From Candidatus Omnitrophota bacterium (GTDB lineage: Bacteria; Omnitrophota; Gorgyraeia; Duberdicusellales; 4484-171): DNA of 64,000 bases. The stretch covers positions 12,471 through 76,470 of the forward strand of contig JAFGQU010000022.1 of NCBI GenBank assembly GCA_016935525.1. The letters run 5' to 3'. The translations under genes and the position numbers were made by a program. The notes below the pieces were generated by a model, which did not search any database, had not been told where the DNA came from, and saw only the letters and a program-made list of their open reading frames with translations. Below, piece by piece: positions 9,307 through 49,879 of this stretch (position 1 is its first letter; the number at the start of each line of letters is the position of its first letter).

Positions 9307-10257
9307 TCAGTCGGCGTCGGTATCAACAAGACTTTCGTAAAATTCACGATAGTTTTCTTTATGCTCGCTATTCCTCAGTGCCATCGCGGCCCGGGGATGT
9401 TCGTTCATCATTCCGGCGATCGCATAAGGAATGATATAGCCCCATTCGATCTTTTCGCGTAACGGAACGAATTCTTTAGAGATCAAATCGAGTATCGGGC
9501 GGATATCGAATTTAGGGTTTTTCAGGAATCCGATCAATAATTCCAGTGGACAATTGCCTGCGGCCCGGCCGATGCCGTATATCGTCGCATCAAGATAATT
9601 CGCACCGTGCATGATCGCCTCGATGGTATTACCGAACGCCAGTTGTTGATGGTTATGCCCGTGAAACCCGACTTCCCGGGTTTTCAGTATTTCTTTGAAT
9701 TTTTTTACCAGCCACTCTACCGGTTCCTGATACAGCGCTCCGAAACTGTCGACAATATATACCGCCTGGACTTTACTCTCGCTTTCGATCTGCTGTAACG
9801 CTTCATCGAGTTCCGGCCCCTGGTCACGTGAAATAGCCATGACGTTAATGGTCGTTTCATACCCTTTCTCGGCAAAATGATTTACCATAAAGATCGCCTT
9901 ATCGATATCTTTTACGTAAGAAGCGACCCGGATCATATCTACCGGGCTCTCGCTTGCAGGTTTGACATCATCGATCTCTACCCGGCCCACATCGACCATT
10001 ACCGATAGTTTCGTATGCGATTCGATCCCTTTGGTTATCTTGAGAATATCCTCGTCATCACAGAACTTCCACGGTCCGTATTCTTTCGCAGAGAACAATT
10101 CCCGCGAATTCTTATAGCCGATTTCCATATAGTCTACACCGGATTCGGAGATTGCTTTATAGACCGCGCGTACCAGTGTAGGGTCAAAATCATGGTTATT
10201 GATCAATCCGCCGTCACGGATCGTGCAATCAAGCACTTTAATTTCGGGACGATACAT
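9307..10257 (-). CDS. HMGL-like (pyruvate carboxyltransferase / DRE-TIM) aldolase-family protein
   Basis: KVLDCTIRDGG N-terminal motif and TIM-barrel-like remainder. Likely start MYRPEIKV at ~10257, preceded by AAAGGAG. The ORF-track upstream extension is probably not translated. Confidence 0.65.
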   Translation of the reverse strand: MYRPEIKVLDCTIRDGGLINNHDFDPTLVRAVYKAISESGVDYMEIGYKNSRELFSAKEYGPWKFCDDEDILKITKGIESHTKLSVMVDVGRVEIDDVKPASESPVDMIRVASYVKDIDKAIFMVNHFAEKGYETTINVMAISRDQGPELDEALQQIESESKVQAVYIVDSFGALYQEPVEWLVKKFKEILKTREVGFHGHNHQQLAFGNTIEAIMHGANYLDATIYGIGRAAGNCPLELLIGFLKNPKFDIRPILDLISKEFVPLREKIEWGYIIPYAIAGMMNEHPRAAMALRNSEHKENYREFYESLVDTDAD

Positions 10258-10265
10258 AGTATACT

Positions 10266-10345
10266 CCTTTTTAGTTTGTGTGTTCGCCCGTGCTTGGTTT
10301 CCCGCCACAGGCGGGATTCCCGTTCCCAAACACGGGGTAACGGGT
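10266..10345 (-). promoter_or_regulatory. GC-rich structured 5' leader (three-way junction) upstream of the HMGL-like gene
   Basis: Outer helix GCCCGTG/CACGGGC encloses two hairpins: CCCGCC-aca-GGCGGG, and CCCGTTCCC-aaacac-GGGGTAACGGG. About 80 nt between a sigma70-like promoter and the RBS. Confidence 0.35.
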
Positions 10346-27702: not shown

Positions 27703-27723
27703 AATGTACCTCCCTTATTTAAA

Positions 27724-28630: not shown

Positions 28631-28676
28631 CACTTTGTATACACAGTAAACAATCGTTATTTACTGTGCGTTCAAC

Positions 28677-28709
28677 TATACAAGTAACTGATTACCCGCT
28701 TTGGTAACC
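28677..28709 (-). promoter_or_regulatory. Conserved 33-nt motif (copy 2): TATACAAGTAA-N12-TTACC-N6-GGTAACC, upstream of the porin-amt-glnK operon
   Basis: tatacaagtaactgattacccgctttggtaacc, with perfect palindrome TTACC-cgcttt-GGTAA. Matches the copy upstream of glnN. Confidence 0.35.
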
Positions 28710-28710
28710 G

Positions 28711-29244: not shown

Positions 29245-29333
29245 AGGTACCTCCTTAAAAAATAAAAACCCTCATCAAGCTGTCATCGCTTAATGAGGGC
29301 GTCGTTGCCGCTTTTGGAGTTTTCCGGGGCCGT

Positions 29334-29364
29334 AAAAAAGAAAAACCCCAAATTACTTTGGGGC
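29334..29364 (-). terminator. Rho-independent terminator after 29432..30541
   Basis: Minus strand: CCCCAAA-gtaa-TTTGGGG followed by TTTTTCTTTTTT. Confidence 0.65.
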
Positions 29365-29431
29365 ATCTTTGCCTAAACCCGTTTCTACCTACATTGTAGA
29401 AACTATTCTTGTATTAAAGATACCATTAATC

Positions 29432-30541: not shown

Positions 30542-30569
30542 GACGGTTTATTATATCAAAGCAATCGTA

Positions 30570-30610
30570 TAAAAAAACGCCTCTTCCGGTAAAAGAAGAG
30601 GCGTTTTTTG
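30570..30610 (-). terminator. Rho-independent terminator after 30632..32272 (bidirectional-capable)
   Basis: AAAAAAACGCCTCTTC-cggtaaaa-GAAGAGGCGTTTTTTG. An upstream hairpin AACCGCAC-cac-GTGCGGTT at 30611-30630. Confidence 0.65.
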
Positions 30611-30631
30611 TCAAACCGCACGTGGTGCGGT

Positions 30632-32272: not shown

Positions 32273-32327
32273 AACAACCTCCTCTTCTTGTATGGGTAAT
32301 AATTATGCGTATTTTGCCTGTATTTCA

Positions 32328-32377
32328 GGCATCCGTAAAAAATAAAAAACGTCCTTCCTCCTGAAAGAAAGGACGTC
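32328..32377 (-). terminator. Rho-independent terminator after the gltD/nfnB-like gene and its 3' repeat array
   Basis: ACGTCCTT-cctcctgaaaga-AAGGACGT with a long A-run on the + strand (U-run on the transcript). Confidence 0.55.
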
Positions 32378-32461
32378 GTTGTCCTATTGATTTACTATAT
32401 CAATATCGTTTATGCTGTCAAGGGGATTATTAAACAGCGGATAGCGTAGAGCGATTAGCGG

Positions 32462-32600
32462 ACAGATGGAAAATCCCGATCAAATCCAAAGCGCTAAATT
32501 CAAAAAAGGTATTCGCTTTCCCCATTAGGATTTCGGATTTAGAATTTTGGATTTTTAAGCCTGTGACGTGTGACCTTATGTCTATGTGACCTATTTCTTC
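32462..32600. repeat. Composite repeat element: AAATCC x2-3, GGATTT x3, TGTGAC x3 (3' of gltD/nfnB-like gene)
   Basis: aaatcccgatcaaatccaaagcgctaaattc...ggatttcggatttagaattttggattttt, then tgtgacgtgtgaccttatgtctatgtgacc. Its reverse complement has the same module order as 36793..37052. Confidence 0.8.
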
Positions 32601-34003
32601 AGATATTCAAGGATAGCTCGAGCCGCTTTCTTTGCCATACCCATCGCTTCGATGACCGTGCCTTCGCCACCGACGATATCTCCTCCGGCATACACCCCCG
32701 GAATCGATGTCTGCATACTGTCCGGGTCGACCGTAATATCACCGTGGGTATCGGTAGATAATTCCGGAGTGACCCGTAACAGGACTTGATTGGCTTTTAG
32801 GCCTACGGCCAGAATCGCTCCTTCACAGGGTATTTCAAACTCACTGCCGGCGATGGCCAGGGGCCGACGTCTTCCTGATGAATCTGGTACACCCAATTCG
32901 CACCGTTGACAGATCGCTTTTTCAATATACCCTTGGCTCCCTTTGAATGCGACCGGTTGCGTGAGGAATTCGAACTGGATGCCTTCTTCACGGGCATGAT
33001 GGATCTCAAGCCGGCGTGCCGGCATTTCTATTTCGGTACGGCGATAAAGGATCTTTACTGACGGAGCATACCCGGCAATGGATTGTAACCGTAATGCGAC
33101 TCTTGCCGCATCCATAGCGGTATTGCCTCCGCCGATTACGACCATCTGTTTTCCTATATTTACCGGAGTCGCGTAGTGAGGGAATTTGTAGGCATTCATA
33201 AGGTTCACCCGGGTAAGGAATTCATTTGCCGAATACACATTACAGAGATTTTCACCGGGGATACCTAAAAATGTCGGAACACCGGCCCCTAATCCTAAAA
33301 AGATCGCCGAATACCCTTCATCCCACAGGTCGGGAATAGTTTTAATTTGACCGATGATGGAATCAGTGATGATCTCTACTCCCAGTTTTTTTATATACTC
33401 TATCTCTACGTCAAGTATGTCGACCGGCAGACGAAACGGCGGTATCCCGTAACACAATACCCCGCCGGCACGGTGAAGACTTTCAAATACAGTCACCTGT
33501 ACTCCCTGGCGGGCTAATTCTCCGGCACAACATAATCCGGCAGGGCCGGAACCGACTACGGCGACTTTACATCTCTTTAGATGTTCTTGTTGCCGGATGG
33601 GGACATCTATGGTGTTTTTTATTCCGTAATCTCCGAGGAACCGTTCCAAAAAATGGATATTGATCGCGTTCTTTGACGCAAACGGTTCTCCTTTTTTTGT
33701 GAGTACGCACGCCCGGCGACATTGATATTCAGCCGGGCATACCCGGCCGCAGATAGACGGGAAATTGTTTTTTTGACGGATAGTCAAATACGCCTGAGCA
33801 TACTCTTTACGGGTAATCTGGAATATGAATTTTTTAATATCGATTCCTACCGGGCACCCTTCGCTACAGGTGGGGTTTTTACATTGAAGACAACGGGCGG
33901 CTTCAGCTAAAGCTTCTTCTTCGGTGTAGAGGCCGACTACTTCGTTGAAATCTTTTATCCGTTGCTGAGGGGCAATCTCTTGTGGGTGTATAGTTTCTTT
34001 CAT
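32591..34003 (-). CDS. GltD-family NADPH-dependent oxidoreductase (NfnB / SudA / 'homotetrameric GltA'-like)
   Basis: Two [4Fe-4S]-type Cys clusters (CLQCKNPTCSEGCP, CGRVCPAEYQCRRAC). Two GxGxxG folds (VVGSGPAGL, VVIGGGNTAMD). About 470 aa. Start set at MKETIH (alternative: 34045). Confidence 0.8.
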   Translation of the reverse strand: MKETIHPQEIAPQQRIKDFNEVVGLYTEEEALAEAARCLQCKNPTCSEGCPVGIDIKKFIFQITRKEYAQAYLTIRQKNNFPSICGRVCPAEYQCRRACVLTKKGEPFASKNAINIHFLERFLGDYGIKNTIDVPIRQQEHLKRCKVAVVGSGPAGLCCAGELARQGVQVTVFESLHRAGGVLCYGIPPFRLPVDILDVEIEYIKKLGVEIITDSIIGQIKTIPDLWDEGYSAIFLGLGAGVPTFLGIPGENLCNVYSANEFLTRVNLMNAYKFPHYATPVNIGKQMVVIGGGNTAMDAARVALRLQSIAGYAPSVKILYRRTEIEMPARRLEIHHAREEGIQFEFLTQPVAFKGSQGYIEKAICQRCELGVPDSSGRRRPLAIAGSEFEIPCEGAILAVGLKANQVLLRVTPELSTDTHGDITVDPDSMQTSIPGVYAGGDIVGGEGTVIEAMGMAKKAARAILEYLKK

Positions 34004-34028
34004 ATTACTAATATAAATGTTCAATGTA

Positions 34029-34106
34029 AAATTAGCATTTAGCAATTAGCAATGTGAAATTCGGAAATTCTCTTATTTCTTCCATTGCTAAATGAAAATT
34101 GCTAAT
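34029..34106. repeat. Inverted array of direct repeats (TTAGCA x3, then TGCTAA x2-3) between the nfnA-like and nfnB-like genes
   Basis: aaattagcatttagcaattagcaatg...cattgctaaatgaaaattgctaattg. Confidence 0.75.
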
Positions 34107-40754: not shown

Positions 40755-42002
40755 TTATTCCGACTCGAGGGTAAGTTTGGTTATGATCTCGGCGATGGTA
40801 GGATGCATAAAAACGCTCTTTTTTAAGCTATCGATGGACATTCGGTTGCGTATCGCATAGGCAAAAATACTGATAAGCTCACAGGCCCCCCGGGAAAGAA
40901 GCGTGGCTCCCAAGAGGGCTCCTTTTTCATCTATAAGGATTTTAAGGTAACCTCCATCGTCATGGTATACCGATGATGACGAAAATGGGCGAAAATGGGT
41001 TTTAAGAGCGCGGTACGCTGTTCTTTCCTGTTCTAACTGCTCCTCTTGGATTCCTACCTGGGCCAGTTGAGGAATAGTAAAAACACCTTCCGGAATACCC
41101 ATAACACTGTATTTCTGGCTGTTTCCGGCAATATTTTCTACGCAGATACGGCCCTGATATTCTCCGATATAGGCATACATCTTTTCTGCGGTCACATCGC
41201 CGCAGGCGTAAATATGCGGCAGGTTTGTCTGACAGAATTCATTAGTAAGGACCCTTTGCGACTGATCACGTTGTATCCCGATAGCATCCAGGTTAAGCCC
41301 CTGAGTATGCGGCACTCTGCCTGCGGCAAGCAGGACCATATCATATTCGTTGAAATCATATTGAGCGGCATCGGCCCCGGTATGAATATCGATGCCTTCG
41401 CGGGACATGTACGTTTTTAACCTTTGAACGATTGAACTGTCAAATCCTAAAAGGATCCGTGGTTCTTTTTCTATGACGGTCACCTTCCGGGAAAGAGTAT
41501 GTAAGAGCGAGGCGAATTCCACGCCGATAGCTCCTCCGCCGACAATAAGGAATTTTCCGGGCAGGGTTTTAAACGAAAAAAGAGTTTCGGCAAAGAATAT
41601 CTTTTTATTGTCTACTCCCAGAAAATCTCTGGGATGAGAACCGGTCGCGATAATATAATATTGAGATTGGATCCTTTTTTCTCCGACGGCGATCTCCCGG
41701 TCATTTATAAACCGGGCCGAGCCCCATAAAAATTCCAGCCCTTGGGTGTGAAGGAATTGGAGCGACTTTTTTTTAATGGATCCGACCAGTTTTTCTTTTT
41801 CCTCATAAAGCCGGGCGGGATTTTTTTCGTATCCCCCGTGGTGAAGATACAGTTTGGCGGGGATGCAACCCCGGTTAAGGCAGGTCCCGCCGTATAGAGC
41901 GGGATCTACATCGATCAGGACGGTCTTTTTTTTCTTTTTCAATGCCTGCCGGGCGGCTTCGATCCCTGCGGCTCCGGCTCCGATTATTACGATATCGTAC
42001 AT
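40755..42002 (-). CDS. Class I pyridine nucleotide-disulfide oxidoreductase (dihydrolipoamide dehydrogenase family)
   Basis: IVIIGAGAAG. Redox-active GGTCLNRGCIPAK. C-terminal FMHPTIAEI dimerisation motif. 415 aa, shorter than canonical Lpd. Confidence 0.7.
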   Translation of the reverse strand: MYDIVIIGAGAAGIEAARQALKKKKKTVLIDVDPALYGGTCLNRGCIPAKLYLHHGGYEKNPARLYEEKEKLVGSIKKKSLQFLHTQGLEFLWGSARFINDREIAVGEKRIQSQYYIIATGSHPRDFLGVDNKKIFFAETLFSFKTLPGKFLIVGGGAIGVEFASLLHTLSRKVTVIEKEPRILLGFDSSIVQRLKTYMSREGIDIHTGADAAQYDFNEYDMVLLAAGRVPHTQGLNLDAIGIQRDQSQRVLTNEFCQTNLPHIYACGDVTAEKMYAYIGEYQGRICVENIAGNSQKYSVMGIPEGVFTIPQLAQVGIQEEQLEQERTAYRALKTHFRPFSSSSVYHDDGGYLKILIDEKGALLGATLLSRGACELISIFAYAIRNRMSIDSLKKSVFMHPTIAEIITKLTLESE

Positions 42003-42910
42003 TGTCTGAACGAAAGGTTATAGTCGTCGACCGTTTTCTTTATCCGGGCATCAAGAGGGATCTCAATGATCTTTTCTATTCCGTCCTTTGAAATGATACA
42101 AGGAACTCCCATAGCAATATCCGAGACTCCGTATTCTCCGTCAAGACAGACCGAAACCGGAATCAGGCTGTGGGTATCAAGAGCGATCGATGCGACAAGG
42201 TCAGCGCAGGCTAAAGACGGCGCAAAATAGGCGCTGCGGCTTTTCAATTGGTCCACTATTTCTTTTCCGCGCAGTGTTACGCGGGACGAGACTTCTTCCT
42301 GTTCTGAGGGAGTAAGAAAATCGGTTATCGGAAGGTTGTTGTATTTTGAATACTCCAGAAGTGGAAGCATATCTTTACTATGCGGGCCGATTACCAGCGA
42401 GTGGATCGAAGCCGGATCGACCGTGGTCTTCTGGTAGATCAGGTTGGTCAGACGTGCCGAGTCAAGGCCGGCTCCCATACCGATCACCCGGGTACGGTCG
42501 AACCCTAACCTTTTTTGCACGAAATATACCAGAAGGTCAAGAGGATTGGTCACGATGACGACTACGGATTCCGGCGCGTTCTTTTTTATCTCAACAGCGA
42601 TTCCTTCGACAATAGTACGATTGATCTTTAAAAGATCACTACGGGTCATTCCTTCCTGTCTCGGTTTACCGGCAGTAATGACTACGATATCCGATCCGGC
42701 GATATCGGAAATCCGGTGGCTTCCGGTGATCTGCGTCCGGAACCCTATAAATTGCCGGGTATCTTCAAGGTCATAAGCGATCCCGCAGGCGAGTCCCGGG
42801 AGAACATCCACCAGGACAAGGTCTTTAAGGTCTAGTTTATTTAAAAGATGGAAGGCAAGTGCGCTTCCTACCGAGCCGGCTCCGATAATAGAGATTTTAT
42901 TGATCATAAT
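41987..42910 (-). CDS. mdh: Malate dehydrogenase (LDH-like family)
   Basis: ISIIGAGSVG. ITAGKPRQEGMTRSDL with Arg at the substrate-specificity position (malate-type). Start set at MINKISIIG. Confidence 0.8.
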   Translation of the reverse strand: MMINKISIIGAGSVGSALAFHLLNKLDLKDLVLVDVLPGLACGIAYDLEDTRQFIGFRTQITGSHRISDIAGSDIVVITAGKPRQEGMTRSDLLKINRTIVEGIAVEIKKNAPESVVVIVTNPLDLLVYFVQKRLGFDRTRVIGMGAGLDSARLTNLIYQKTTVDPASIHSLVIGPHSKDMLPLLEYSKYNNLPITDFLTPSEQEEVSSRVTLRGKEIVDQLKSRSAYFAPSLACADLVASIALDTHSLIPVSVCLDGEYGVSDIAMGVPCIISKDGIEKIIEIPLDARIKKTVDDYNLSFRQCTIS

Positions 42911-42917
42911 CGTTATA

Positions 42918-43032
42918 TTGAAATACGATAGAAATACATAGAAATACGATGGAAATGCAATTGTATTTCGTTCCGTGAAGCGGAACATATTTCACGAACG
43001 TATGTGAGTATATTTCGCGAAGCATATTTCAA
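42918..43032. repeat. Inverted array of direct repeats (GAAATAC x4, central hairpin, GTATTTC x4) between the IDH-family gene and mdh
   Basis: gaaatacgatagaaatacatagaaatacgatggaaatgcaat - tgtatttcgttccgtgaagcggaacatatttcacgaacgtatgtgagtatatttcgcgaagcatatttcaatg. Confidence 0.85.
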
Positions 43033-44114
43033 TGAGACTTTATTTTCTTGATTATTGCATCGGCCATCTGAGACGTCCCGACTGCGGCCGGATCGTCACG
43101 GTCGGCTTTTAGATCATAGGTTACCGCTTTCCCTTCGGCAATAACCTCTTCGACCGCTTTTTCGAGGCAGCAGGCTTCACGTGTATATCCCAGATGTTTT
43201 AACATCAACACCCCCGAAAGGATCGTTGCGGTCGGATTCACCTTGTTTTTTCCGGTATATTTCGGAGCCGAGCCGTGGACCGGTTCGAACACCGCATATT
43301 CATCTCCGATATTCGCGCCCGGGGCGACCCCTAACCCCCCTACCAATCCTGCGCATAGATCGGAAATAATGTCGCCGTAGAGATTTTGTAATACCAGAAT
43401 ATCAAAATTTTGCGGACGGGTCACCAATTGCATGCATAGATTATCGACAATGATATCGCCGGCTTCAATATCGGGATATTCTTTGGCGACTTCTTTAAAT
43501 GTATGCAGCCATAATCCGTCGGTCGCTTTCATGATGTTCGCTTTATGTACACAGGTAACCTTTTTGCGGCTTTCTTTACGGGCCAATTCAAAGGCAAACC
43601 GGCTGATATGGCGAGTTGCGCTTATCGATATCGGTTTAATCGAGATGGCACTGTCTTTTCGTATCTCCTGCCCGCTTGCGGCTGAGATCTGCGATATAAG
43701 CTTATCGGTCACTTCCTCACCCTGAAAGAACTCTATGCCGGCATAAAGATCTTCGGAATTTTCCCTCAGTACGATAATATCGACGTTTTTATGAGGCGCG
43801 GCTACTCCGGCTATGGTCTTTGCCGGCCGCAGGCATACGGACAGATCTAACGCATGTCGCAAGGCTACATTTACCGAACGGAAACCGCTTCCTATCGGAG
43901 TAATGATCGGCCCTTTAATGGCTACTTTATTTTTTTTTATCGAATCGAGAGTTGCTTTAGGCAGGAGCTCTCCGCTTGCTTCCAATGCCGGTTGCCCGGC
44001 CAACGCTTCTTGCCATTCGATAGTTACTCCGGTCGCATCGATACAACGCCGTGTGGCCAGAGTCACTTCCGGCCCGATCCCGTCACCTGGGATAAGAGTC
44101 ACTTTGTGCGACAT
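43029..44114 (-). CDS. Isocitrate / 3-isopropylmalate dehydrogenase family protein (NAD-dependent beta-decarboxylating dehydrogenase)
   Basis: LIPGDGIGPEV N-terminus. FRSVNVALR. GSAPKYTGKNKVNPTATILS. 361 aa. IDH vs LeuB vs homoisocitrate DH cannot be resolved by eye. Confidence 0.75.
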   Translation of the reverse strand: MSHKVTLIPGDGIGPEVTLATRRCIDATGVTIEWQEALAGQPALEASGELLPKATLDSIKKNKVAIKGPIITPIGSGFRSVNVALRHALDLSVCLRPAKTIAGVAAPHKNVDIIVLRENSEDLYAGIEFFQGEEVTDKLISQISAASGQEIRKDSAISIKPISISATRHISRFAFELARKESRKKVTCVHKANIMKATDGLWLHTFKEVAKEYPDIEAGDIIVDNLCMQLVTRPQNFDILVLQNLYGDIISDLCAGLVGGLGVAPGANIGDEYAVFEPVHGSAPKYTGKNKVNPTATILSGVLMLKHLGYTREACCLEKAVEEVIAEGKAVTYDLKADRDDPAAVGTSQMADAIIKKIKSH

Positions 44115-44210
44115 TGCATCCTTTCCCGCGTGAATCCCTGCCCGCCCTGCCTGAGTACAGTCAGGGCGCAGGCGGTGGCGCGTTTTGATCCGTGGGATTC
44201 CGCTGCTATC

Positions 44211-44711
44211 TTACAATTTAAAATCACCGTATTTTTTTAAATAAGGGATGATCCCCCCCTGATTCACCAATTCTTTACGGAATGAATCAAATTTGACAAA
44301 TACACTCTCTTTATTTTTTGTATGGTTGTAAATAACTCCCCGGTCGCAATCAACCGTCAGTTCATCTTTTTCTGCGATCCCTTCGGTATCGGCTTCAATC
44401 AGCGGCAGGCCGATATTAAAGGCATTACGATAAAATATCCGGGCAAAACTTTTTGCTACTACACAGGCAATTCCCGCTTCTTTGATCACCCAGGGCGCCT
44501 GTTCCCGGGAAGAACCTAACCCGAAATTATTTCCGGCAATGACGATCGATTTTCCGGGAGTGATCTCTTTTGAAAACCCCGGCCGGATATCTTCAAAGAG
44601 ATATTGTGATAATTCCTTCATATCGCTGATTTTAAATTTGTAGCGCCCTGAAATGATAAAATCGGTATTGATGTCGTCGCCAAAACGAAAGGTTATGCCG
44701 TCAAATTTCAT
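44211..44711 (-). CDS. leuD: 3-isopropylmalate (or homo-)aconitase-family dehydratase, small subunit (archaeal-type LeuD)
   Basis: 166 aa. GDDINTDFIISGRY and AGNNFGLGSSREQAP motifs. Confidence 0.75.
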   Translation of the reverse strand: MKFDGITFRFGDDINTDFIISGRYKFKISDMKELSQYLFEDIRPGFSKEITPGKSIVIAGNNFGLGSSREQAPWVIKEAGIACVVAKSFARIFYRNAFNIGLPLIEADTEGIAEKDELTVDCDRGVIYNHTKNKESVFVKFDSFRKELVNQGGIIPYLKKYGDFKL

Positions 44712-45757
44712 AAGTTTTTGAAATCCAGAGGGTTACGGACTCTGGTCATCGCAGTTTCCATTGTGATTACTCCGGTCTGTACCAGTTCTTTAAGACAATG
44801 GTCCATAGTGTGCATTCCGTATTGAGCGCCCATCTGCATCAATGAAGGAATCTGCGCGATCTCTCCTTCACGGATCAAATTTCTGATACCGGGGGTGGAA
44901 ATCATCACTTCTGTCGCAAGTCTTCTTCCCTGCCCGTCAGCCCGCGGTAAAAGGTTTTGCGAGATTACCCCTTGCAGACAATCGGCAAGTTGTACGCGTA
45001 CCTGTTTTTGTTGATGCGGAGGGAATACGTCGATGATCCGTTGTACGGTCTGCGGAGCATCGGAAGTATGTATTGTCCCCAGTACCAGATGGCCGGTTTC
45101 GGCCGCCGTGATCGTCGTTGCAATCGTTTCCAGATCGCGCATTTCCCCTACCACGATCACATCGGGATCCTGGCGTAAACAACGTTTTAAAGCTTCCGGG
45201 AACGAATGGGTATCGGCGTACACTTCTCGTTGTTTTATGATACTCTTACGGTTCTCATGATAGAATTCTATAGGGTCTTCTATACATACGATCATTTCCT
45301 GTCGTTCGGAGTTGATCACATCGATCATTGCCGCCATGGTAGTGCTTTTTCCAGTTCCGGTCGGCCCGGTGAGAAGAATAAGGCCGTTACGGCGTTGAAG
45401 TAACTCGTAAGCAATCGGCGGTAGGTCTAATTGATCCATGCCGGGAATCACCTTTGGAATCCGTCTAAATGCCGCCTCTACACTGGTCCTTTGATAGTGG
45501 ACATTAACCCGGAACCGGTCAAGTCCGGACATAGTAAACGAAAAATCAAGTTCTTTGTCGCGTTCAAAAATAGCTTTTTGATCGTCAGTCAATATACTGT
45601 AGATGAGTGATTTAGTCTCATCGCCGGAGAGTGAGTCCATCGTCATCGTGTACAGGCGGCCGTCAATGCGCAAGATCGGAGGTTGGTTGACAGTGATATG
45701 AAGGTCACTGGCTTTTTTATCCATAGTGAGCTTCAGTAGTTCATTGATCGTTACCAT
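44708..45757 (-). CDS. pilT: Type IV pilus retraction ATPase PilT
   Basis: Walker A LLTGPTGTGKSTT. PilT-signature GHLVLGTIHTSDAPQTVQRIIDVFP. 349 aa. Confidence 0.85.
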   Translation of the reverse strand: MVTINELLKLTMDKKASDLHITVNQPPILRIDGRLYTMTMDSLSGDETKSLIYSILTDDQKAIFERDKELDFSFTMSGLDRFRVNVHYQRTSVEAAFRRIPKVIPGMDQLDLPPIAYELLQRRNGLILLTGPTGTGKSTTMAAMIDVINSERQEMIVCIEDPIEFYHENRKSIIKQREVYADTHSFPEALKRCLRQDPDVIVVGEMRDLETIATTITAAETGHLVLGTIHTSDAPQTVQRIIDVFPPHQQKQVRVQLADCLQGVISQNLLPRADGQGRRLATEVMISTPGIRNLIREGEIAQIPSLMQMGAQYGMHTMDHCLKELVQTGVITMETAMTRVRNPLDFKNL

Positions 45758-45772
45758 AGTAACTTTCCTCTC

Positions 45773-47026
45773 TTATTTTATATATTTTCTCGGATCGGTT
45801 ATTTTTCCGGTAAGGCTTGATGCCGCGACAGCAGCCGGAGATGCAAGATAAATAAAACTATGAGGGTTACCCATTCTTCCTTTAAAATTACGGTTAGCCG
45901 TCGATAACACTACTTCTCCGTCTGCCGGCACCCCCAGATGGGTCCCTACACACGGCCCGCATCCGGCAGGAAGGATAACCGCACCGGCATCGATCAGGGT
46001 TTTTATGAGACCTTTTTTAAGCGCAGCGAGATAAATCTTTCCCGAAGCCGGAGCGATTAACAGTTTTATTCGCGGATGCACTTTTCGTCCGGAAAGTATT
46101 TTCGCTGCGATTTCAAGATCTTCTAACCTGCCGTTGGTACAGGTTCCAATATACGCCTGATCGATTTTAGTGTCAACCAGCTCTTCTATCGGCGCTCCGT
46201 TATCGACCGTATGAGGTTTTGCGATATAAGGAGTCAATTTCGATACATTACATTCGATCACTTTTTCATAGTGACAATCTTTATCCGGGTATACCGGGAT
46301 ATATGTACGGTCTTTTATTTTTTTCAAAAACTGGAGGACCTTCTTATCGACTGGGGTAGTGCCGCATTTTGCGCCGAATTCAATCGTCATGTTTGTGATG
46401 GTGCAACGCGCGTCGATGGAAAGGGTATCAATCACCCCTCCGGTAAATTCAATCGCTTTATACGTAGCCTCGTTTGCCGTAAGGGTATGGATTATGTGCA
46501 GGATGATATCCTTACTGTAGACTCCTTTAGGCAACTTGCCGTGTACGATGATCTTGTAAGTCTCGGGCACTTTGAACCAGTTTTTACCGGTAGTAAGGGT
46601 TACCGCAAGGTCGGTCGACCCGACTCCCATTCCGATCGCCCCCAGAGTCCCGCAGGTCGATGTATGCGAATCCGCACCCAGGATAAGGGCCCCGGGTATG
46701 GCGAACCCTTCTTCGATCACCAACTGATGCGAGATCCCGCAATTCACATCAAACAGGCGGGTTTTTGTTTTTTGAGAGAAGTCCCTCATACGCGAATGGA
46801 TCCTGGCTACGCCTACATTAGGAGCTGGAGCGCTATGATCGATGAATATCGCGTATTTCTTAGGATCTTTAAGAGGTTTTTTGAACGTAGCGATGCTGTC
46901 TAAGACCAATGAAGTCGTTCCGTCCTGAGAAAAACAAAAATCAACCCGGCACACCCCGACTTCTCCCGCTCGTAAAGATTTACCGGCATGACGAGAAAAA
47001 ACTTTTTCGGCGATTGTCTGGCTCAT
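45773..47026 (-). CDS. leuC: 3-isopropylmalate (or homo-)aconitase-family dehydratase, large subunit (archaeal-type LeuC)
   Basis: 417 aa. Aconitase-family Cys ligands (GTCTNG, AGCGPCVG). ...ADSHTSTCG... Confidence 0.8.
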   Translation of the reverse strand: MSQTIAEKVFSRHAGKSLRAGEVGVCRVDFCFSQDGTTSLVLDSIATFKKPLKDPKKYAIFIDHSAPAPNVGVARIHSRMRDFSQKTKTRLFDVNCGISHQLVIEEGFAIPGALILGADSHTSTCGTLGAIGMGVGSTDLAVTLTTGKNWFKVPETYKIIVHGKLPKGVYSKDIILHIIHTLTANEATYKAIEFTGGVIDTLSIDARCTITNMTIEFGAKCGTTPVDKKVLQFLKKIKDRTYIPVYPDKDCHYEKVIECNVSKLTPYIAKPHTVDNGAPIEELVDTKIDQAYIGTCTNGRLEDLEIAAKILSGRKVHPRIKLLIAPASGKIYLAALKKGLIKTLIDAGAVILPAGCGPCVGTHLGVPADGEVVLSTANRNFKGRMGNPHSFIYLASPAAVAASSLTGKITDPRKYIK

Positions 47027-48201
47027 TATAGATTGTCCATGAATTCTTTTATGCGACGGGCGCCTTCTTTGATCTGTTCAGTACTCGTCGCAAAACTGAT
47101 ACGGATATACCCTTCAATACCGAATCCTTCCGAAGGAATAACGGCAACGGAGTGTGTATCAAGAAGCCGGGAAGCAAAATCATAAGCCGAAAGGCCGCTT
47201 TGGGAAATATCGCAGAAAAGATAAAAAGTCCCCTGGGGCTTTAACGGTGAAAGCGACGGGTGTCCGCTCAAGCTCTCAAATAACAGGTCCCGCCTTTCCT
47301 GAAAAATCTTTTTGATGTGCCCGGTCCACTCCTGTCCTTTAGCCAACGCGACACATGCTGCTTTTTGAGCGATAGAATTTGCCCCGCTGGTAGTATGGTC
47401 GATCATTTTTGACGCTTCCTGAACAAATTTGACCGGAGCGGCGATATAACCCAGTCGCCAGCCGGTCATAGAAAAACATTTGGAAAATCCGTTCACCGTG
47501 ATTGTCCGGTTATACGCTTCCTTATTAAGAGCCGCAAAACTCGTATGGGTTCTTTTATCGAAAAGTATATGTTCGTAGATCTCGTCGCTTAATACCCAAA
47601 GATTACTATCTTTAATGACATCCCAGAGGGCTTTAAGTTCAGATTCGGTATACGTCACGCCGGTGGGGTTGGAAGGATAATTTAAAATGATCAGTTTTGA
47701 TCGGGCGGTGATCGCCGCCGCAAGCTTCTTCGGATCGATCTTAAATCCGTTTTCTCTATGTGTGGGAAGAGTACGGACTTTCGCACCGGCAATCTTTGCC
47801 ATCTCCGGGTAACTTACCCAGTAGGGTTCGGGAAGGATGATCTCTGAATCTTTCTCGATCAAAGCAAAAATACCCAGGAACACAGAAAATTTAGCTCCGG
47901 TAGTCACCAGGATGTTTTCCGGAGTATAACCAAGAGAATTTTCGTTTTGAAGTTTTTCGACAATACCGGCTTTAAGCTCGGGAGCGCCGGAAGAGGGCGT
48001 ATATTTCGTAAATCCTTGGTCAAGTGCGTCTTTTGCCGCTTGTTTTATGAAATCCGGCGTATCGAAATCAGGCTCACCGGCGGCAAAGTTGATGATATCT
48101 TTACCTTCTTTTTTTAGCTTTTTCGCCAAAGCGGTGATCTTAAGCGTAGGCGACTTAGAAAGAGCCGTAACATGAGAATTAAACTGATTTAGAATCTCCA
48201 T
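47026..48201 (-). CDS. Class I pyridoxal-phosphate-dependent aminotransferase (AspC-like)
   Basis: NYPSNPTGV and FSKCFSMTGWRLGY (PLP-Lys context). 391 aa. Confidence 0.8.
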   Translation of the reverse strand: MEILNQFNSHVTALSKSPTLKITALAKKLKKEGKDIINFAAGEPDFDTPDFIKQAAKDALDQGFTKYTPSSGAPELKAGIVEKLQNENSLGYTPENILVTTGAKFSVFLGIFALIEKDSEIILPEPYWVSYPEMAKIAGAKVRTLPTHRENGFKIDPKKLAAAITARSKLIILNYPSNPTGVTYTESELKALWDVIKDSNLWVLSDEIYEHILFDKRTHTSFAALNKEAYNRTITVNGFSKCFSMTGWRLGYIAAPVKFVQEASKMIDHTTSGANSIAQKAACVALAKGQEWTGHIKKIFQERRDLLFESLSGHPSLSPLKPQGTFYLFCDISQSGLSAYDFASRLLDTHSVAVIPSEGFGIEGYIRISFATSTEQIKEGARRIKEFMDNL

Positions 48202-48231: not shown

Positions 48232-48262
48232 GCGATAAAACTCCGGCTTTTAAGCCGGAGAT
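48232..48262 (-). terminator. Rho-independent terminator after rplQ
   Basis: Minus strand CTCCGGC-ttaaaa-GCCGGAG followed by TTTTAT. Upstream hairpins GATTCCGC/GCGGAATC and CCGGA/TCCGG. Confidence 0.6.
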
Positions 48263-48380: not shown

Positions 48381-48896
48381 TCATTTTCTATCCGAAGATT
48401 TTTTCTTGAACATCTCCTTTACTCCGTGAATGAGTCCTCCTTTAGGCTGTTTTTCTTTTGATTCGGGAGATGTCGCTTTTTCTTTTTTCTCTTCGGTTTC
48501 TTTTTGGGTCTTCTTTTTAGCCTTTTTCTCTTCTTTTTTCTCTCTTTTGGTGAATTCGATCAAAGCCAGCGATGCGCCGTCACCGGGCCGGGTAGCCAAC
48601 GGGATGATCCGGGTATATCCCCCGGCGATTTCGCTGAATCTCGGAGCGATCACATCAAAAACCTTTTTCACCAAACGATGATCGTTAAGAAGCTGATAGG
48701 CCTGACGGCGGGTATGCAGAGTATTATCTTTACCCAATCCGATGAGTTTATCGGCCCAGGCGCGTAATCCTTTTGCTTTAGCTCTGGTGGTCTTGATAGA
48801 CTCGTAGATCACCAGCGAACGCAATAGACTTCTTATGAGCGCTTTACGTTGAGCCCGGGAACGGGAAAATTTTTCGTTCTTTTTACGATGCCTCAT
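48381..48896 (-). CDS. rplQ: 50S ribosomal protein L17, with a ~45-aa Lys/Glu-rich C-terminal extension
   Basis: Conserved L17 core MRHRKKNEKFSRSRAQRKAL...GGYTRI. Tail KREKKEEKKAKKKTQKETEEKKEK... Confidence 0.9.
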   Translation of the reverse strand: MRHRKKNEKFSRSRAQRKALIRSLLRSLVIYESIKTTRAKAKGLRAWADKLIGLGKDNTLHTRRQAYQLLNDHRLVKKVFDVIAPRFSEIAGGYTRIIPLATRPGDGASLALIEFTKREKKEEKKAKKKTQKETEEKKEKATSPESKEKQPKGGLIHGVKEMFKKKSSDRK

Positions 48897-49879
48897 ACCA
48901 TTTCAAGTTTTTTGGGGTCTATTTTTGTCCCTAACGATAACCCCATGGTTTTCAATAAGTTAGTGATCTCGTTTAAAGATTTCTTCCCGAAATTCCTATA
49001 GGCGAGCATTTCCGCTTCAGCCTTGGATACCAGTTCGGAAAGACTCTTGATGTTGGCCTCTCTCAGACAGTTGGCGCTTCTTACCGATAATTCCAATTCG
49101 GAAATAGGGATCTTAAGTTTCTCATAGAACGCGATCTCCTCCGGAGTGAGTTCTTCGATCTCTTCTTCCGGTATCTCACCCAAAGTAAAGAAAAGTTCCA
49201 GATGCTTACTGAACACTTTCGAAGCATAGATCAACGCCTCTTTGGGTTCGATACTGCCGTTAGTGGTTATTTCCAGGATAAGTTTGTCGTAATCGGTCCG
49301 TTTACCGACTCGGGCGTTCTCTACTTTAAAATTGACTTTTTTTACCGGGGTAAAGATAGAATCGATAGGAATCACCCCGATAGGCATATCTTCCTGCTTA
49401 TTCATATCCGCCGGAACAAATCCGCGCCCCTTGCCTACTTCCATCTCAATGTCTATCTTTGAATTCTTTGAAGTCAATTCGGCGACATGCAGATCGGGAT
49501 TTACCACTTCGATGCTTTCATCGGTGGTAATATCTCCAGCCGTAACATTCTTTTCTCCAGTTATTTTTAAGGTGATCTTACGGGGTGATTTCGAATAGGA
49601 ACGCAACACAATATTTTTAATATTGAGGATAAGTTCGGGAAAGTCTTCTTTGACGCCGGGTATCGTAGAGAATTCATGCGATGCCCCTTCTACTTTAATA
49701 GAAGTCACTGCCGCACCCTCAATTGACGAAAGCAATGCCCGTCTTAATGAATTTCCCAGCGTAACTCCATACCCTCGTTCTAACGGTTCAGCGATAAATT
49801 TTCCGTAGAAGGGTGTATATGATTCTTCTTCGATGATGATACGCTTGGGAAATTGAAAATCGCGCCATGTAATGCCCAT
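48893..49879 (-). CDS. rpoA: DNA-directed RNA polymerase alpha subunit
   Basis: RpoA N-terminal and C-terminal domains recognisable. 328 aa. Confidence 0.95.
   Translation of the reverse strand: MGITWRDFQFPKRIIIEEESYTPFYGKFIAEPLERGYGVTLGNSLRRALLSSIEGAAVTSIKVEGASHEFSTIPGVKEDFPELILNIKNIVLRSYSKSPRKITLKITGEKNVTAGDITTDESIEVVNPDLHVAELTSKNSKIDIEMEVGKGRGFVPADMNKQEDMPIGVIPIDSIFTPVKKVNFKVENARVGKRTDYDKLILEITTNGSIEPKEALIYASKVFSKHLELFFTLGEIPEEEIEELTPEEIAFYEKLKIPISELELSVRSANCLREANIKSLSELVSKAEAEMLAYRNFGKKSLNEITNLLKTMGLSLGTKIDPKKLEMV

What the first reader, a model, noticed from the sequence alone, without database searches (positions are those of the whole stretch)
43029..48201. pilT embedded, with 4-nt overlap, between leuC-like and leuD-like genes of an aconitase-family/dehydrogenase operon
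Order: aminotransferase, LeuC-like, PilT, LeuD-like, IDH/IPMDH-family, mdh. pilT overlaps leuD by ATGA and is 15 nt after leuC, so it is translationally embedded in a metabolic operon and far from any other pilus genes.

Either a genuine retraction ATPase is co-regulated with this pathway, or this PilT-family ATPase has been recruited for another function. It is also unclear whether the LeuCD/IDH-family trio is for leucine, a 2-oxoacid elongation pathway (homoaconitase/homoisocitrate DH), or a TCA variant.
Basis: seen in the sequence. Interest (0 to 1): 0.5.

Follow-up and report, generated by a model that had tools for sequence, protein, structure and literature searches.

The report
pilT fixed inside Omnitrophota metabolic operon
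In this uncultured Omnitrophota bacterium and about 70 related loci, the gene for the motor that retracts type IV pili lies between the two subunit genes of a probable aconitase; this is an ancient, inherited gene order, but nothing shows that the pilus motor and the enzymes work together.

Summary
On the minus strand the order is aminotransferase, LeuC-like, pilT, LeuD-like, IDH-family dehydrogenase, mdh, lpd-like. There are 15 nt between leuC and pilT, and pilT and leuD share an ATGA overlap. No other pilus gene lies in the 64 kb.

The window comes from Candidatus Omnitrophota, class Koll11, close to order Duberdicusellales. The arrangement is not a recent insertion. leuC-pilT-leuD occurs in 69 related loci and sits directly after the ribosomal rpoA-rplQ operon wherever that flank is held. 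It spans Velamenicoccia and Gorgyraia. 40 of 73 pilT-leuD junctions keep a 4-nt overlap.

One nested clade has lost pilT from the site. Zapsychrales has lost leuCD but keeps AT-pilT.

PilT is an orthodox retraction ATPase and the best-conserved gene of the block.

The LeuCD-like pair fails the equivalog cut-offs for both isopropylmalate isomerase and homoaconitase. Its substrate loop, RYKF, is invariant. It most likely supplies the aconitase that AcnA-less Omnitrophota lack, feeding an NAD-IDH-like enzyme. Its nearest archaeal relatives, however, lie in lysine (alpha-aminoadipate) clusters.

Best reading: a genuine pilT frozen into a housekeeping operon by co-transcription and translational coupling, with no shown biochemical link. 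Interest is moderate.

The parts
47026..48201 (-). Class I/II aminotransferase, closest to aspartate aminotransferases; first gene of the block after rplQ
   Evidence: PF00155 at 262 bits. The best NCBIfam hit is asp_aminotase_Arch at 390 bits, below its 550 cut-off. It is present upstream of leuC in most related loci and absent in a few, for example L003, L007 and L009.
45773..47026 (-). LeuC-like large subunit of an aconitase-family [4Fe-4S] hydro-lyase; probable aconitase large subunit
   Evidence: PF00330 at 332 bits. It passes only the subfamily models PRK00402 and TIGR02086. It falls below the equivalog cut-offs for IPMI (TIGR02083, 437 against 611) and methanogen homoaconitase (NF040615, 410 against 550). 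The Cys motifs GTCTNG and GCGPCVG are present. It scores 321 and 317 bits against solved homoaconitase and IPMI large subunits.
45758..45772 (-). 15-nt leuC-pilT spacer with a Shine-Dalgarno-like GAGAGGAAAG
   Evidence: Read directly from the sequence. The leuC-pilT gaps in relatives are mostly short, though some exceed 100 nt.
44708..45757 (-). pilT, type IVa pilus retraction ATPase (349 aa)
   Evidence: TIGR01420 at 466 bits against a cut-off of 319. The best solved match is Geobacter PilT4 6ojx at 383 bits, against PilU 9n32 at 278 bits. GPTGTGKST, IEDPIEF, DPDVIVVGEMRD, TGHLVLGTIHT and GIRNLIREG are conserved across 81 sequences. A 100% identical NCBI protein is named PilT in a Candidatus Omnitrophica MAG.
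44708..44711 (-). ATGA overlap of the pilT stop codon and the leuD start codon (translational coupling)
   Evidence: Read directly from the sequence. The same 4-nt overlap is kept at 40 of 73 pilT-leuD junctions in related loci.
44211..44711 (-). LeuD-like small subunit with an invariant RYKF substrate loop; probable aconitase small subunit
   Evidence: PF00694. It passes the TIGR02087 subfamily model only. It falls below the cut-offs for the leuD equivalog (165 against 246) and HacB (161 against 230). The loop GRYKF[K/A/S]I[ST]D is invariant in its RYKF core across 52 orthologues. Solved proteins have ARYLVY (IPMI 3vba), GPYLRT (homoaconitase 2pkp) and GRYNLT (1v7l) at this position.
44115..44210 (-). 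96-nt leuD-icd spacer with a GC-rich inverted repeat; function unknown
   Evidence: Read directly from the sequence. No Rfam match. No terminator-like T-run.
43029..44114 (-). Isocitrate/isopropylmalate dehydrogenase family enzyme, closest to small NAD-dependent IDHs
   Evidence: PF00180 at 351 bits. The best NCBIfam models are all IDH (388 bits against a 510 cut-off). The best solved match is NAD-IDH 6lky at 347 bits, against homoisocitrate DH at 246 and IPMDH at 209. The RS[VI]N motif is invariant in 53 orthologues.
41987..42988 (-). Malate dehydrogenase. The true start is probably the Met at residue 28 of the listed ORF, about position 42907.
   Evidence: NF004863 at 317 bits against a cut-off of 283. 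The Pfam Ldh_1_N match starts at residue 31.
40755..42002 (-). Dihydrolipoyl-dehydrogenase-like flavoprotein (415 aa), overlapping the end of mdh by 16 nt
   Evidence: Pyr_redox_2 plus Pyr_redox_dim. TIGR01350 scores 309 bits, below its 409 cut-off. It is conserved after mdh in most related loci.
48241..48260 (-). Terminator-like hairpin (CTCCGGCTTAAAAGCCGGAG followed by TTTTAT) between rplQ and the aminotransferase gene
   Evidence: Consensus scan and direct reading. No terminator-like site was found on the coding strand between AT and lpd.
48381..49879 (-). rpoA and rplQ, the end of the ribosomal alpha operon, immediately upstream of the block (context anchor)
   Evidence: ORFs. The rpsD-rpoA-rplQ-(AT)-leuC-pilT order is conserved in related loci.

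Best explanation
pilT here is a genuine type IVa pilus retraction ATPase gene. It was inserted between the large- and small-subunit genes of a LeuCD-type hydro-lyase in an early ancestor of Omnitrophota class Koll11 and has been inherited vertically since.

It belongs to a housekeeping block (aminotransferase, hydro-lyase large subunit, pilT, hydro-lyase small subunit, isocitrate dehydrogenase, malate dehydrogenase, lpd-like) that sits directly after the ribosomal rpoA-rplQ operon.

The inferred mechanism is this. The block is transcribed as one unit. pilT is translated from its own Shine-Dalgarno site 15 nt after leuC. leuD is translated by ribosomes that terminate on pilT, through the ATGA overlap. 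This gives PilT steady, growth-linked expression and makes leuD expression depend on pilT. That dependence helps to lock the order in place. No biochemical interaction between PilT and the enzymes is required.

The enzymes most likely form the oxidative TCA branch (citrate to isocitrate to 2-oxoglutarate) plus the oxaloacetate, malate and aspartate interconversions. That branch would supply 2-oxoglutarate to the GS-GOGAT genes about 20 kb away. The RYKF-loop LeuCD pair would stand in for the canonical aconitase that most of these genomes lack.

What is shown: gene identities, junctions, conservation and phylogenetic distribution. What is inferred: co-transcription, translational coupling, the substrates of the enzymes, and the pilus function of PilT.
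For: Anatomy is given.

PilT is orthodox.

Organism: PilT homologues of 70-100% identity, where a source names them, come from Candidatus Omnitrophota/Omnitrophica MAGs.

Synteny from the PilT query on 80 species genomes:
- 47 loci show the full leuC-pilT-leuD order.
- 7 more are cut by contig ends but consistent with it.
- 3 have leuC-pilT without leuD.
- 9 have AT-pilT without leuCD.
- 14 lie in other contexts.

Synteny from the independent LeuC query on metagenomes: in the AT/ribosomal context, 23 loci have pilT after leuC and 13 have leuD after leuC. All 20 loci in other contexts have leuD directly after leuC.

Taxonomy of named MAGs, from the Seymour 2023 supplement: the full arrangement occurs in Duberdicusellales, Velamenicoccales, Gygaellales and Gorgyraeales, all in GTDB class Koll11.

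In the LeuC and RpoA trees, the pilT-less ribosomal-context loci are nested among pilT-bearing clades, and Zapsychrales (AT-pilT) forms one clade.

PilT is the best-conserved gene of the block. Its mean identity to the window is 67%, against RpoA 66, IDH 66, LeuD 61, LeuC 60 and AT 50. Its divergence tracks RpoA (rho 0.75).

The ATGA overlap is kept at 40 of 73 junctions. G+C content shows no anomaly at pilT. No terminator-like site lies inside the block, and one lies before AT.

Literature:
- Type IVa pilus genes occur in 135/141 Velamenicoccia and 38/40 Gorgyraia genomes (PMC10066038).
- The KO lists of two genomes show pilB, pilC, pilD, pilM and pilT but no pilU.
- Omnitrophota have a horseshoe TCA cycle that ends at 2-oxoglutarate for ammonia assimilation. 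AcnA was found in only 3 of 14 MAGs, and the authors suggest that an aconitase-family enzyme substitutes for it (PMC8542988).

The window also carries GOGAT, GS-III and two Amt genes.
Against: - There are no expression data, so co-transcription and coupling are inferred from spacing only.
- The consensus promoter and terminator scans found no more sites than in shuffled sequence.
- Conserved order over such divergence could reflect selection for co-regulation rather than mere lock-in. I cannot separate the two.
- The rest of the genome is not available, so the presence of pilB/C/M-Q and the absence of a second pilT or pilU in this organism rest on literature for relatives.
- The aconitase assignment is indirect. 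The closest LeuD homologues outside the phylum lie in LysW-type lysine (alpha-aminoadipate) clusters. The Ser/Asn motif of the dehydrogenase also occurs in the archaeal cluster's dehydrogenase.
- The trees are neighbour-joining without support values.
Confidence: 0.62

Rival explanations
1. The linkage is adaptive. Pilus retraction is deliberately co-regulated with the 2-oxoglutarate/aspartate node, so that contact-dependent feeding or attachment follows carbon and nitrogen status. Selection on that shared regulation, rather than lock-in, keeps pilT in the operon.
For: The order has persisted across a whole class while flanking genes were lost piecemeal (AT, leuCD, icd/mdh). pilT is still found next to AT after leuCD loss in Zapsychrales, and in L020 it overlaps icd by 4 nt. 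A nitrogen-assimilation cluster lies in the same window. In L069, a pilT outside this context again overlaps a metabolic gene, pfk.
Against: No regulator, riboswitch or conserved promoter was found. One whole clade lost pilT from the site without losing the enzymes. Zapsychrales lost leuCD without losing pilT. So neither partner needs the other in cis. The genes that stay next to pilT differ between lineages.
Confidence: 0.15
2. This PilT-family ATPase has been recruited to a function other than pilus retraction, for example powering another secretion or uptake machine, or acting with the flanking enzymes. The real retraction motor would be encoded elsewhere.
For: It is isolated from all other pil genes in 64 kb and embedded among metabolic genes.
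Against: It meets every sequence criterion of PilT, including the (A/G)IRNLIRE motif, and matches solved PilT better than PilU or DotB. It was the best PilT-like match in each species genome fetched, and only one assembly gave two loci. KO lists of two Omnitrophota genomes show pilT without pilU, alongside pilB/C/D/M.
Confidence: 0.07
3. On the metabolic part only: the LeuCD-like pair and the dehydrogenase are homoaconitase and homoisocitrate dehydrogenase of a 2-oxoacid elongation or alpha-aminoadipate route, with the aminotransferase making 2-aminoadipate. They would then not be aconitase and IDH.
For: The nearest non-Omnitrophota LeuD homologues with a YKF loop (54% and 48% identity) lie in complete LysW/LysX/HCS/LysY/LysZ/LysJ/LysK clusters. 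Related bacterial loci have a NifV-type homocitrate-synthase-like gene in front of leuC-leuD-dehydrogenase, scoring above the TIGR02660 cut-off. A basic residue in the loop fits any tricarboxylate substrate.
Against: No LysW-pathway or homocitrate synthase gene lies in the window's block. mdh follows the dehydrogenase. The window's dehydrogenase ranks IDH models first (388 bits against 334 for homoisocitrate DH). The archaeal cluster's enzyme ranks the homoisocitrate and isopropylmalate models first. Its best solved match is an NAD-IDH. Most Omnitrophota MAGs lack AcnA yet have citrate synthase and IDH. Zapsychrales, which lacks leuCD at this locus, includes Ca. Zapsychrus, which has AcnA. Re-citrate synthases are also NifV-like, as the title of Li et al. 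2007, cited in PMC8542988, states.
Confidence: 0.2
4. pilT is a recent insertion or an assembly chimera in this one MAG.
For: None beyond the oddity of the order.
Against: The same order occurs in 69 independent loci from many studies and assemblers, with PilT identity running from 87% down to 58%. There is no composition anomaly.
Confidence: 0.01

Closest known systems
PilT, type IVa pilus retraction ATPase (Geobacter metallireducens PilT4 6ojx, Aquifex aeolicus PilT 2ewv/2gsz, Pseudomonas aeruginosa PilT 3jvu)
   Same: Full-length alignment. It scores 383, 347 and 340 bits against these solved structures. Length is similar. Walker A, Asp box, Walker B, His box and the (A/G)IRNLIRE motif are present. 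It scores above the TIGR01420 cut-off.
   Different: The difference is genomic setting only. The gene lies between the two subunit genes of a metabolic enzyme and behind a ribosomal operon. In the model organisms I know of, pilT sits next to pilU or within pil clusters (my own knowledge, not tested here).
Archaeal-type two-subunit aconitase-family hydro-lyases: Methanocaldococcus jannaschii isopropylmalate/citramalate isomerase (4kp1/3vba) and homoaconitase (4kp2/2pkp), and the Pyrococcus horikoshii small subunit (1v7l)
   Same: Same two-subunit architecture and Fe-S ligand motifs. The large subunit scores 317-321 bits and the small subunit 116-139 bits against them. It passes the subfamily models TIGR02086 and TIGR02087.
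   Different: It is below every equivalog cut-off. The substrate loop is RYKF (one residue longer) instead of YLVY (isomerase) or YLRT (homoaconitase). Its neighbours are IDH-like and mdh rather than leuA/leuB or coenzyme B genes.
Homoaconitase of LysW-type alpha-aminoadipate lysine clusters in Thermoproteota (Brockarchaeota MAGs) and related contigs
   Same: These hold the closest non-Omnitrophota small subunits found (54% and 48% identity), with a related G[KR]YKFK loop. The order is leuC-leuD-dehydrogenase.
   Different: There leuC and leuD are adjacent with no pilT, and they are surrounded by lysW, lysX, HCS and lysYZJK. The dehydrogenase is only 41% identical to the window's and ranks homoisocitrate/isopropylmalate models first.
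The 'missing aconitase' of Omnitrophota horseshoe TCA cycles (Williams et al. 2021, PMC8542988, Supplementary Table S6 note)
   Same: Those authors found AcnA in only 3 of 14 MAGs. They suggested that one of two enzymes annotated as 3-isopropylmalate/(R)-2-methylmalate dehydratase acts as aconitase. The pair described here fits that suggestion.
   Different: The paper does not mention pilT (no occurrence in text or supplements), the gene order or the RYKF loop. This work adds the locus, its conservation and the complementary pattern with Zapsychrales.
Small homodimeric NAD-dependent isocitrate dehydrogenases (6lky; 6ltf/6m3s)
   Same: These are the best solved matches (347 and 301 bits, full length). 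The Arg/Ser/Asn substrate motif RSVN is shared.
   Different: The window's enzyme has an insert of about 20 residues (around residues 131-155). It is below the NCBIfam IDH equivalog cut-offs.

Membership tests
PilT/PilU family type IVa pilus ATPase (TIGR01420) | Whole-protein score above the curated cut-off | tested here: met
   466 bits against a cut-off of 319.1, covering profile positions 2-341 of 343.
PilT/PilU family type IVa pilus ATPase (TIGR01420) | Catalytic motifs: Walker A, Asp box, Walker B, His box | tested here: met
   GPTGTGKST, IEDPIEF, DPDVIVVGEMRD and TGHLVLGTIHT are conserved in all 81 aligned sequences, with only conservative changes.
PilT rather than PilU | C-terminal AIRNLIRE-type motif, and closer similarity to PilT than to PilU | tested here: met
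   GIRNLIREG is present in the window, and (A/G/S)IRNLIRE in the orthologues. Solved PilT scores 340-383 bits against PilU 9n32 at 278 bits. That the motif is specific to PilT is my own knowledge.
PilT rather than PilU | Acts with a type IVa pilus machine (pilB, pilC, pilM-Q, pilins) in the same genome | not testable with these tools
   Only 64 kb of the genome is held, and none of these genes is in it. The literature reports type IVa pilus genes in 135/141 Velamenicoccia genomes, and pilB/C/D/M/T KOs in two example genomes.
3-isopropylmalate dehydratase (LeuC/LeuD equivalogs TIGR02083/TIGR02084, TIGR00170/TIGR00171) | Score above the equivalog cut-offs | tested here: not met
   LeuC: 437 against 611 and 221 against 560. 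LeuD: 165 against 246 and 60 against 116.
3-isopropylmalate dehydratase (LeuC/LeuD equivalogs TIGR02083/TIGR02084, TIGR00170/TIGR00171) | Hydrophobic small-subunit substrate loop (YLVY type), and leuA/leuB neighbours | tested here: not met
   The loop is RYKFK. The neighbours are an IDH-like enzyme and mdh, and no leuA or leuB lies in the window.
Methanogen-type homoaconitase (NF040615 HacA, NF040625/NF040604 HacB) | Score above the equivalog cut-offs, and a YLRT loop | tested here: not met
   410 against 550; 161 and 132 against 230. The loop is RYKF rather than YLRT.
Homoaconitase of the alpha-aminoadipate lysine pathway (LysW type) | Placement in or with a LysW/LysX/HCS/LysYZJK cluster | tested here: not met
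   None of these genes is in the window. The nearest outgroup homologues do sit in such clusters, so common ancestry with this type is likely, but the context differs here.
Aconitate hydratase (AcnA, AcnB, Aquifex-type PRK07229/TIGR01342) | Score above the curated cut-offs for a known aconitase family | tested here: not met
   The best aconitase model, PRK07229, scores 348 against 612. AcnA and AcnB models are far below their cut-offs. So the pair is not a member of a described aconitase family. The claim made is only that it works like an aconitase.
Aconitate hydratase (function) | Interconverts citrate and isocitrate | not testable with these tools
   Only indirect evidence exists: IDH and mdh as neighbours, the absence of AcnA in most Omnitrophota MAGs, and the complementary pattern with Zapsychrales.
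Isocitrate dehydrogenase (NF006529, TIGR00175 and others) | Score above an IDH equivalog cut-off | tested here: not met
   388 against 510; 343 against 432. IDH models do rank first, and the best solved matches are all IDH.
Isocitrate dehydrogenase (NF006529, TIGR00175 and others) | Ser/Asn pair that binds the gamma-carboxylate (E. coli Ser113/Asn115) | tested here: inconclusive
   RSVN is present and invariant in 53 orthologues. However, the dehydrogenase of the archaeal lysine cluster also has QSVN, so the motif does not discriminate.
Malate dehydrogenase (NF004863) | Score above the cut-off | tested here: met
   316.6 bits against a cut-off of 283.

The most novel reading that the evidence does not exclude
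Pilus retraction in Koll11 Omnitrophota is hard-wired to central carbon and nitrogen metabolism. On this reading pilT is kept inside the 2-oxoglutarate-producing operon because retraction, and so contact with a host or prey, must be dosed together with this branch. Alternatively, PilT and the two-subunit hydro-lyase interact physically. Either way the gene order would be a functional signature of the episymbiotic or predatory lifestyle rather than a frozen accident.
Probability: 0.1. Interest if true: 0.6.

Novelty: new variant of a known kind. Interest (0 to 1): 0.38.

Why it matters
- It shows that an odd-looking gene order is real, ancient and class-wide in a phylum known almost only from metagenomes. 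That gives a simple synteny marker for Koll11 and its sublineages: full block, pilT lost, or leuCD lost.
- It places the pilus retraction motor among the most conserved, housekeeping-linked genes of these ultra-small, probably host-dependent bacteria. This fits the view that type IV pili are central to their way of life.
- It names a concrete candidate, with a diagnostic RYKF loop, for the aconitase that published reconstructions of Omnitrophota metabolism could not find. The candidate can be tested by simple enzyme assays.
- It does not reveal a new mechanism. The PilT and the enzymes belong to known families.

Tried and rejected
- An exact look-up of the window's PilT on contigs found nothing.
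- An internal promoter for pilT: the best sigma-70-like match (11 of 12, at 46176..46148 inside leuC) is not conserved in seven relatives, so I treat it as chance.
- RNA elements: a permissive Rfam scan of 38-52 kb gave no match.
- An alignment of the rplQ-AT spacers of relatives was uninformative.
- The window's HMGL-like gene (9307..10329) as a Re-citrate synthase: it scores only sub-threshold, nearest to 4-hydroxy-2-oxovalerate aldolase, so no citrate synthase is identified in the window.
- The Ser/Asn motif as proof of isocitrate specificity: rejected, because the archaeal lysine-cluster dehydrogenase has it too.
- Recent insertion or chimera: rejected.
- Literature: no paper found mentions pilT between leuC and leuD. 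Searches for two-subunit or heterodimeric aconitase found nothing.
- Kizina et al. 2022 and Li et al. 2007 are not held, so expression data for Ca. Velamenicoccus archaeovorus could not be read.
- No structure prediction was run, because it would not decide between the explanations.

Full report
**1. The observation**

On the minus strand lie:
- an aminotransferase (48201..47026);
- a LeuC-like gene (47026..45773);
- pilT (45757..44708);
- a LeuD-like gene (44711..44211);
- an isocitrate/isopropylmalate dehydrogenase family gene (44114..43029);
- mdh (42988..41987, probably starting at about 42907);
- a dihydrolipoyl-dehydrogenase-like gene (42002..40755).

The leuC stop codon is followed by 15 nt holding a GAGG-type ribosome-binding site, then the pilT ATG. 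The pilT stop codon overlaps the leuD start codon as ATGA.

Pfam and NCBIfam support the family assignments. All genes of the window are on the same strand. The block starts right after rpsD-rpoA-rplQ.

Pfam scans of the ORFs of at least 120 aa from 1 to 48 kb found no other pilus gene. They did find a nitrogen-assimilation neighbourhood: GOGAT, glutamine synthetase type III and two ammonium transporters. The ribosomal-protein end of the window (48-64 kb) was not scanned.

**2. The organism**

A 100% identical protein is on record as PilT of a Candidatus Omnitrophica MAG. The next 119 hits are 68-86% identical, and those that carry a source name are Omnitrophota/Omnitrophica PilT.

Named MAGs among the related loci can be placed with the taxonomy table of Seymour et al. 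2023 (PMC10066038). The window groups with B7_G16 and fen_1318 on the RpoA and LeuC trees. Both belong to Velamenicoccia, order Duberdicusellales, GTDB class Koll11.

**3. Conservation, searched from pilT**

80 species genomes holding a close PilT relative were fetched with 10-kb flanks and searched with the window's proteins.
- 47 loci show leuC-pilT-leuD in full, nearly always within rpsD-rpoA-rplQ-(AT)-leuC-pilT-leuD-icd-mdh-lpd.
- 7 more are cut by a contig end but are consistent with this.
- 3 have leuC-pilT without leuD.
- 9 have rplQ-AT-pilT without leuC or leuD.
- 14 lie in other contexts. These are high-G+C 'Omnitrophota' with tandem pilT-like genes, one locus with pilT followed by pfk, and Actinobacteria and Acidobacteriota.

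The full arrangement is present in Duberdicusellales, Velamenicoccales (CG1_02_44_16), Gygaellales (GWF2_43_52) and Gorgyraeales (UBA10183). The AT-pilT form is found in Zapsychrales.

**4. Conservation, searched from leuC**

A search that starts from pilT cannot see loci that lost pilT. I therefore searched metagenome contigs with LeuC.

Among loci in the AT/ribosomal context that hold downstream sequence, 23 have pilT directly after leuC and 13 have leuD directly after leuC. All 20 loci in other contexts have leuC-leuD adjacent, usually followed by the same kind of dehydrogenase. In three of the loci inspected (L128, L135, L146) a NifV-like synthase gene comes first.

On a LeuC tree rooted with archaeal homologues, the ribosomal-context loci form one clade. 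Within it, the pilT-less loci form a single subclade nested among pilT-bearing ones. On the RpoA tree they fall within the clade that holds Gorgyraeales, and the AT-pilT Zapsychrales loci form one clade.

The simplest history is one insertion of pilT between leuC and leuD before the radiation of Koll11, then one later loss of pilT from the site and one loss of leuCD. These are neighbour-joining trees without support values, so the number of events is provisional.

**5. pilT as a working, vertically inherited gene**

Across 49 loci with the complete block, PilT is the best-conserved protein. Mean identity to the window is 67% for PilT, against RpoA 66, IDH 66, LeuD 61, LeuC 60, RpsD 59, AT 50, MDH 44 and LPD 36. 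PilT divergence follows that of RpoA (rho 0.75) and LeuC (rho 0.72).

All ATPase motifs and the PilT-type (A/G)IRNLIRE motif are kept. Solved PilT proteins match over the full length at 340-383 bits, PilU at 278 bits and DotB at 127 bits. G+C content is even across the block.

The ATGA overlap between pilT and leuD is kept at 40 of 73 junctions. Where leuD was lost, pilT overlaps icd by 4 nt instead (L020).

**6. What the enzymes are**

The LeuC-like and LeuD-like proteins pass only the broad archaeal-type subfamily models. They fall below the equivalog cut-offs for both isopropylmalate isomerase and homoaconitase.

The small-subunit loop sets substrate choice in the methanogen enzymes (my own knowledge of work on the M. 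jannaschii proteins). Here it reads GRYKF(K/A/S)I(T/S)D, with RYKF invariant in 52 orthologues. Solved proteins have ARYLVY in the isomerase, GPYLRT in the homoaconitase and GRYNLT in the Pyrococcus protein. A conserved basic residue suggests a substrate with a third carboxylate.

The dehydrogenase ranks IDH models first. Its best solved match is an NAD-IDH at 347 bits, against homoisocitrate DH at 246 and isopropylmalate DH at 209. mdh follows it, and an aspartate-aminotransferase-like gene leads the block.

Williams et al. 2021 (PMC8542988) describe a horseshoe TCA cycle in Omnitrophota whose oxidative branch ends at 2-oxoglutarate for ammonia assimilation. They found AcnA in only 3 of 14 MAGs and proposed that an aconitase-family enzyme annotated as isopropylmalate dehydratase substitutes for it. 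Nine of the eleven AcnA-less MAGs carry two such enzymes.

By the column order of their table, the three MAGs with AcnA include Ca. Zapsychrus. That is the order in which my loci lack leuCD next to pilT and carry a different, 402-residue dehydrogenase. I read this complementary pattern as support for an aconitase role.

KO lists in the Seymour source data show a genome with citrate synthase, NAD-IDH, mdh and leuC/leuD but no aconitase KO.

**7. The counter-evidence on the enzymes**

A search of 1.84 billion representative proteins shows that the closest small subunits outside the phylum share a G(K/R)YKFK loop (loops read). Those that carry a source name are archaeal: Brockarchaeota/Thermoproteota at 54% identity and Bathyarchaeota at 49%.

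Two of the three whose contigs I looked up lie in complete LysW-type alpha-aminoadipate lysine clusters, with leuC and leuD adjacent. The family therefore probably descends from homoaconitases. A homoaconitase-like or dual activity cannot be excluded.

The Ser/Asn motif I first took as a mark of isocitrate specificity is also present in the archaeal cluster's dehydrogenase, so I dropped that argument. The archaeal dehydrogenase does rank homoisocitrate and isopropylmalate models above IDH models, the reverse of the window's enzyme.

I put the aconitase/IDH reading at about 0.6 to 0.65, the homoaconitase-type reading at about 0.2, and leucine biosynthesis well below that.

**8. How it most likely works**

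A terminator-like hairpin lies between rplQ and the aminotransferase gene. None lies on the coding strand inside the block. The gaps inside the block are short or negative.

I infer one transcript from AT to lpd. pilT would be translated from its own ribosome-binding site, and leuD would be coupled to termination on pilT. This gives PilT constitutive, growth-linked expression. It also makes removal of pilT costly for leuD expression, which would help to freeze the order.

Nothing requires PilT and the enzymes to interact. Lineages have lost either partner while keeping the other.

Type IVa pilus genes are reported in 135/141 Velamenicoccia and 38/40 Gorgyraia genomes. Two example genomes list pilB, pilC, pilD, pilM and pilT KOs without pilU. 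This fits a single, genuine retraction motor.

**9. Comparison with what is known, and novelty**

PilT is a full member of its family. The hydro-lyase is a member of the archaeal-type LeuCD subfamily but not of any described equivalog or aconitase family. The dehydrogenase is IDH-like but below the equivalog cut-offs.

I found no paper that mentions pilT at this position. 'pilT' does not occur in the text of either main Omnitrophota genomics paper, nor in the supplementary files held for them, some of which were cut when stored.

The new points are three: the conserved gene order, its evolutionary history, and the RYKF-loop candidate for the missing aconitase. The idea that a LeuCD-like enzyme replaces aconitase in Omnitrophota was already voiced.

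I rate this a new variant of a known kind, with moderate interest. It is a well-supported curiosity with a testable enzymological side, not a new mechanism.

Noticed in passing
window 14504-34045: A nitrogen-assimilation neighbourhood lies on the same strand. It holds two GltD-like subunits (14504-15952, 32591-34045), a GOGAT large subunit (16062-20591), glutamine synthetase type III (21718-23844) and two ammonium transporters (24340-25734, 26353-27702). It lies about 20 kb downstream of the 2-oxoglutarate-producing block.
   Followed up: partly
window 5121-6626 (-): A ThyX of 501 aa with two Thy1 stretches, roughly twice what I recall as the usual length (my own knowledge, not tested here). 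It appears to be a tandem-duplicated flavin-dependent thymidylate synthase.
   Followed up: no
window 48241-48260 (-): A terminator-like hairpin, CTCCGGCTTAAAAGCCGGAG followed by TTTTAT, lies between rplQ and the aminotransferase gene. It suggests that the metabolic/pilT block is a transcription unit separate from the ribosomal alpha operon, or is reached by read-through.
   Followed up: partly
window 44115-44210 (-): The 96-nt leuD-icd spacer holds a GC-rich inverted repeat (CGCCCTG...CAGGGCG) without a T-run. It has no Rfam match.
   Followed up: no
L069:7418-10635: In a low-G+C genome outside the ribosomal context, a PilU-like gene and pilT (59% identical to the window's) follow metK and ahcY. 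pfk comes next, overlapping the pilT stop codon by 4 nt. Here too pilT is coupled to a metabolic gene.
   Followed up: no
L128, L135, L146 (about 4700-9100 in each): These loci lack the ribosomal context and carry a four-gene module: a NifV-like homocitrate/Re-citrate-synthase-like gene, leuC, leuD with loop GR(Y/H)KFKTLD, and an IDH-family gene. In L135 and L146 the synthase scores above the TIGR02660 cut-off. This may be a widespread 2-oxoglutarate or 2-oxoadipate module.
   Followed up: partly
L081-L085 (archaeal and unplaced contigs): The nearest LeuD homologues outside Omnitrophota lie in complete LysW-type lysine clusters. This hints at an archaeal-type origin of the Omnitrophota enzyme, possibly by transfer.
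   Followed up: partly
L036, L039, L045, L051, L053, L056, L057, L061: Zapsychrales-type loci keep rplQ-AT-pilT but lack leuCD. In L039 and L051, pilT is followed by a divergent dehydrogenase of about 400 residues (IDH family, about 33% identical to the window's) and then lipB. In L061 the gene after pilT is a 62%-identical IDH.
   Followed up: partly
window 27724-28599, 10776-11138, 30632-32272 (-): Two ORFs (291 aa and 120 aa) have no Pfam match. A 546-aa protein has only a partial Glu_synthase domain and no NCBIfam match.
   Followed up: no
L058, L059, L060, L062, L065: High-G+C contigs labelled Omnitrophota (62-67% G+C where measured: L058, L059, L065) carry PilT genes about 60% identical to the window's. 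L058, L059 and L065 have N-terminal extensions, and L058, L059, L060 and L062 have a second, more distant PilT-like gene upstream. None is in the ribosomal/leuCD context.
   Followed up: no
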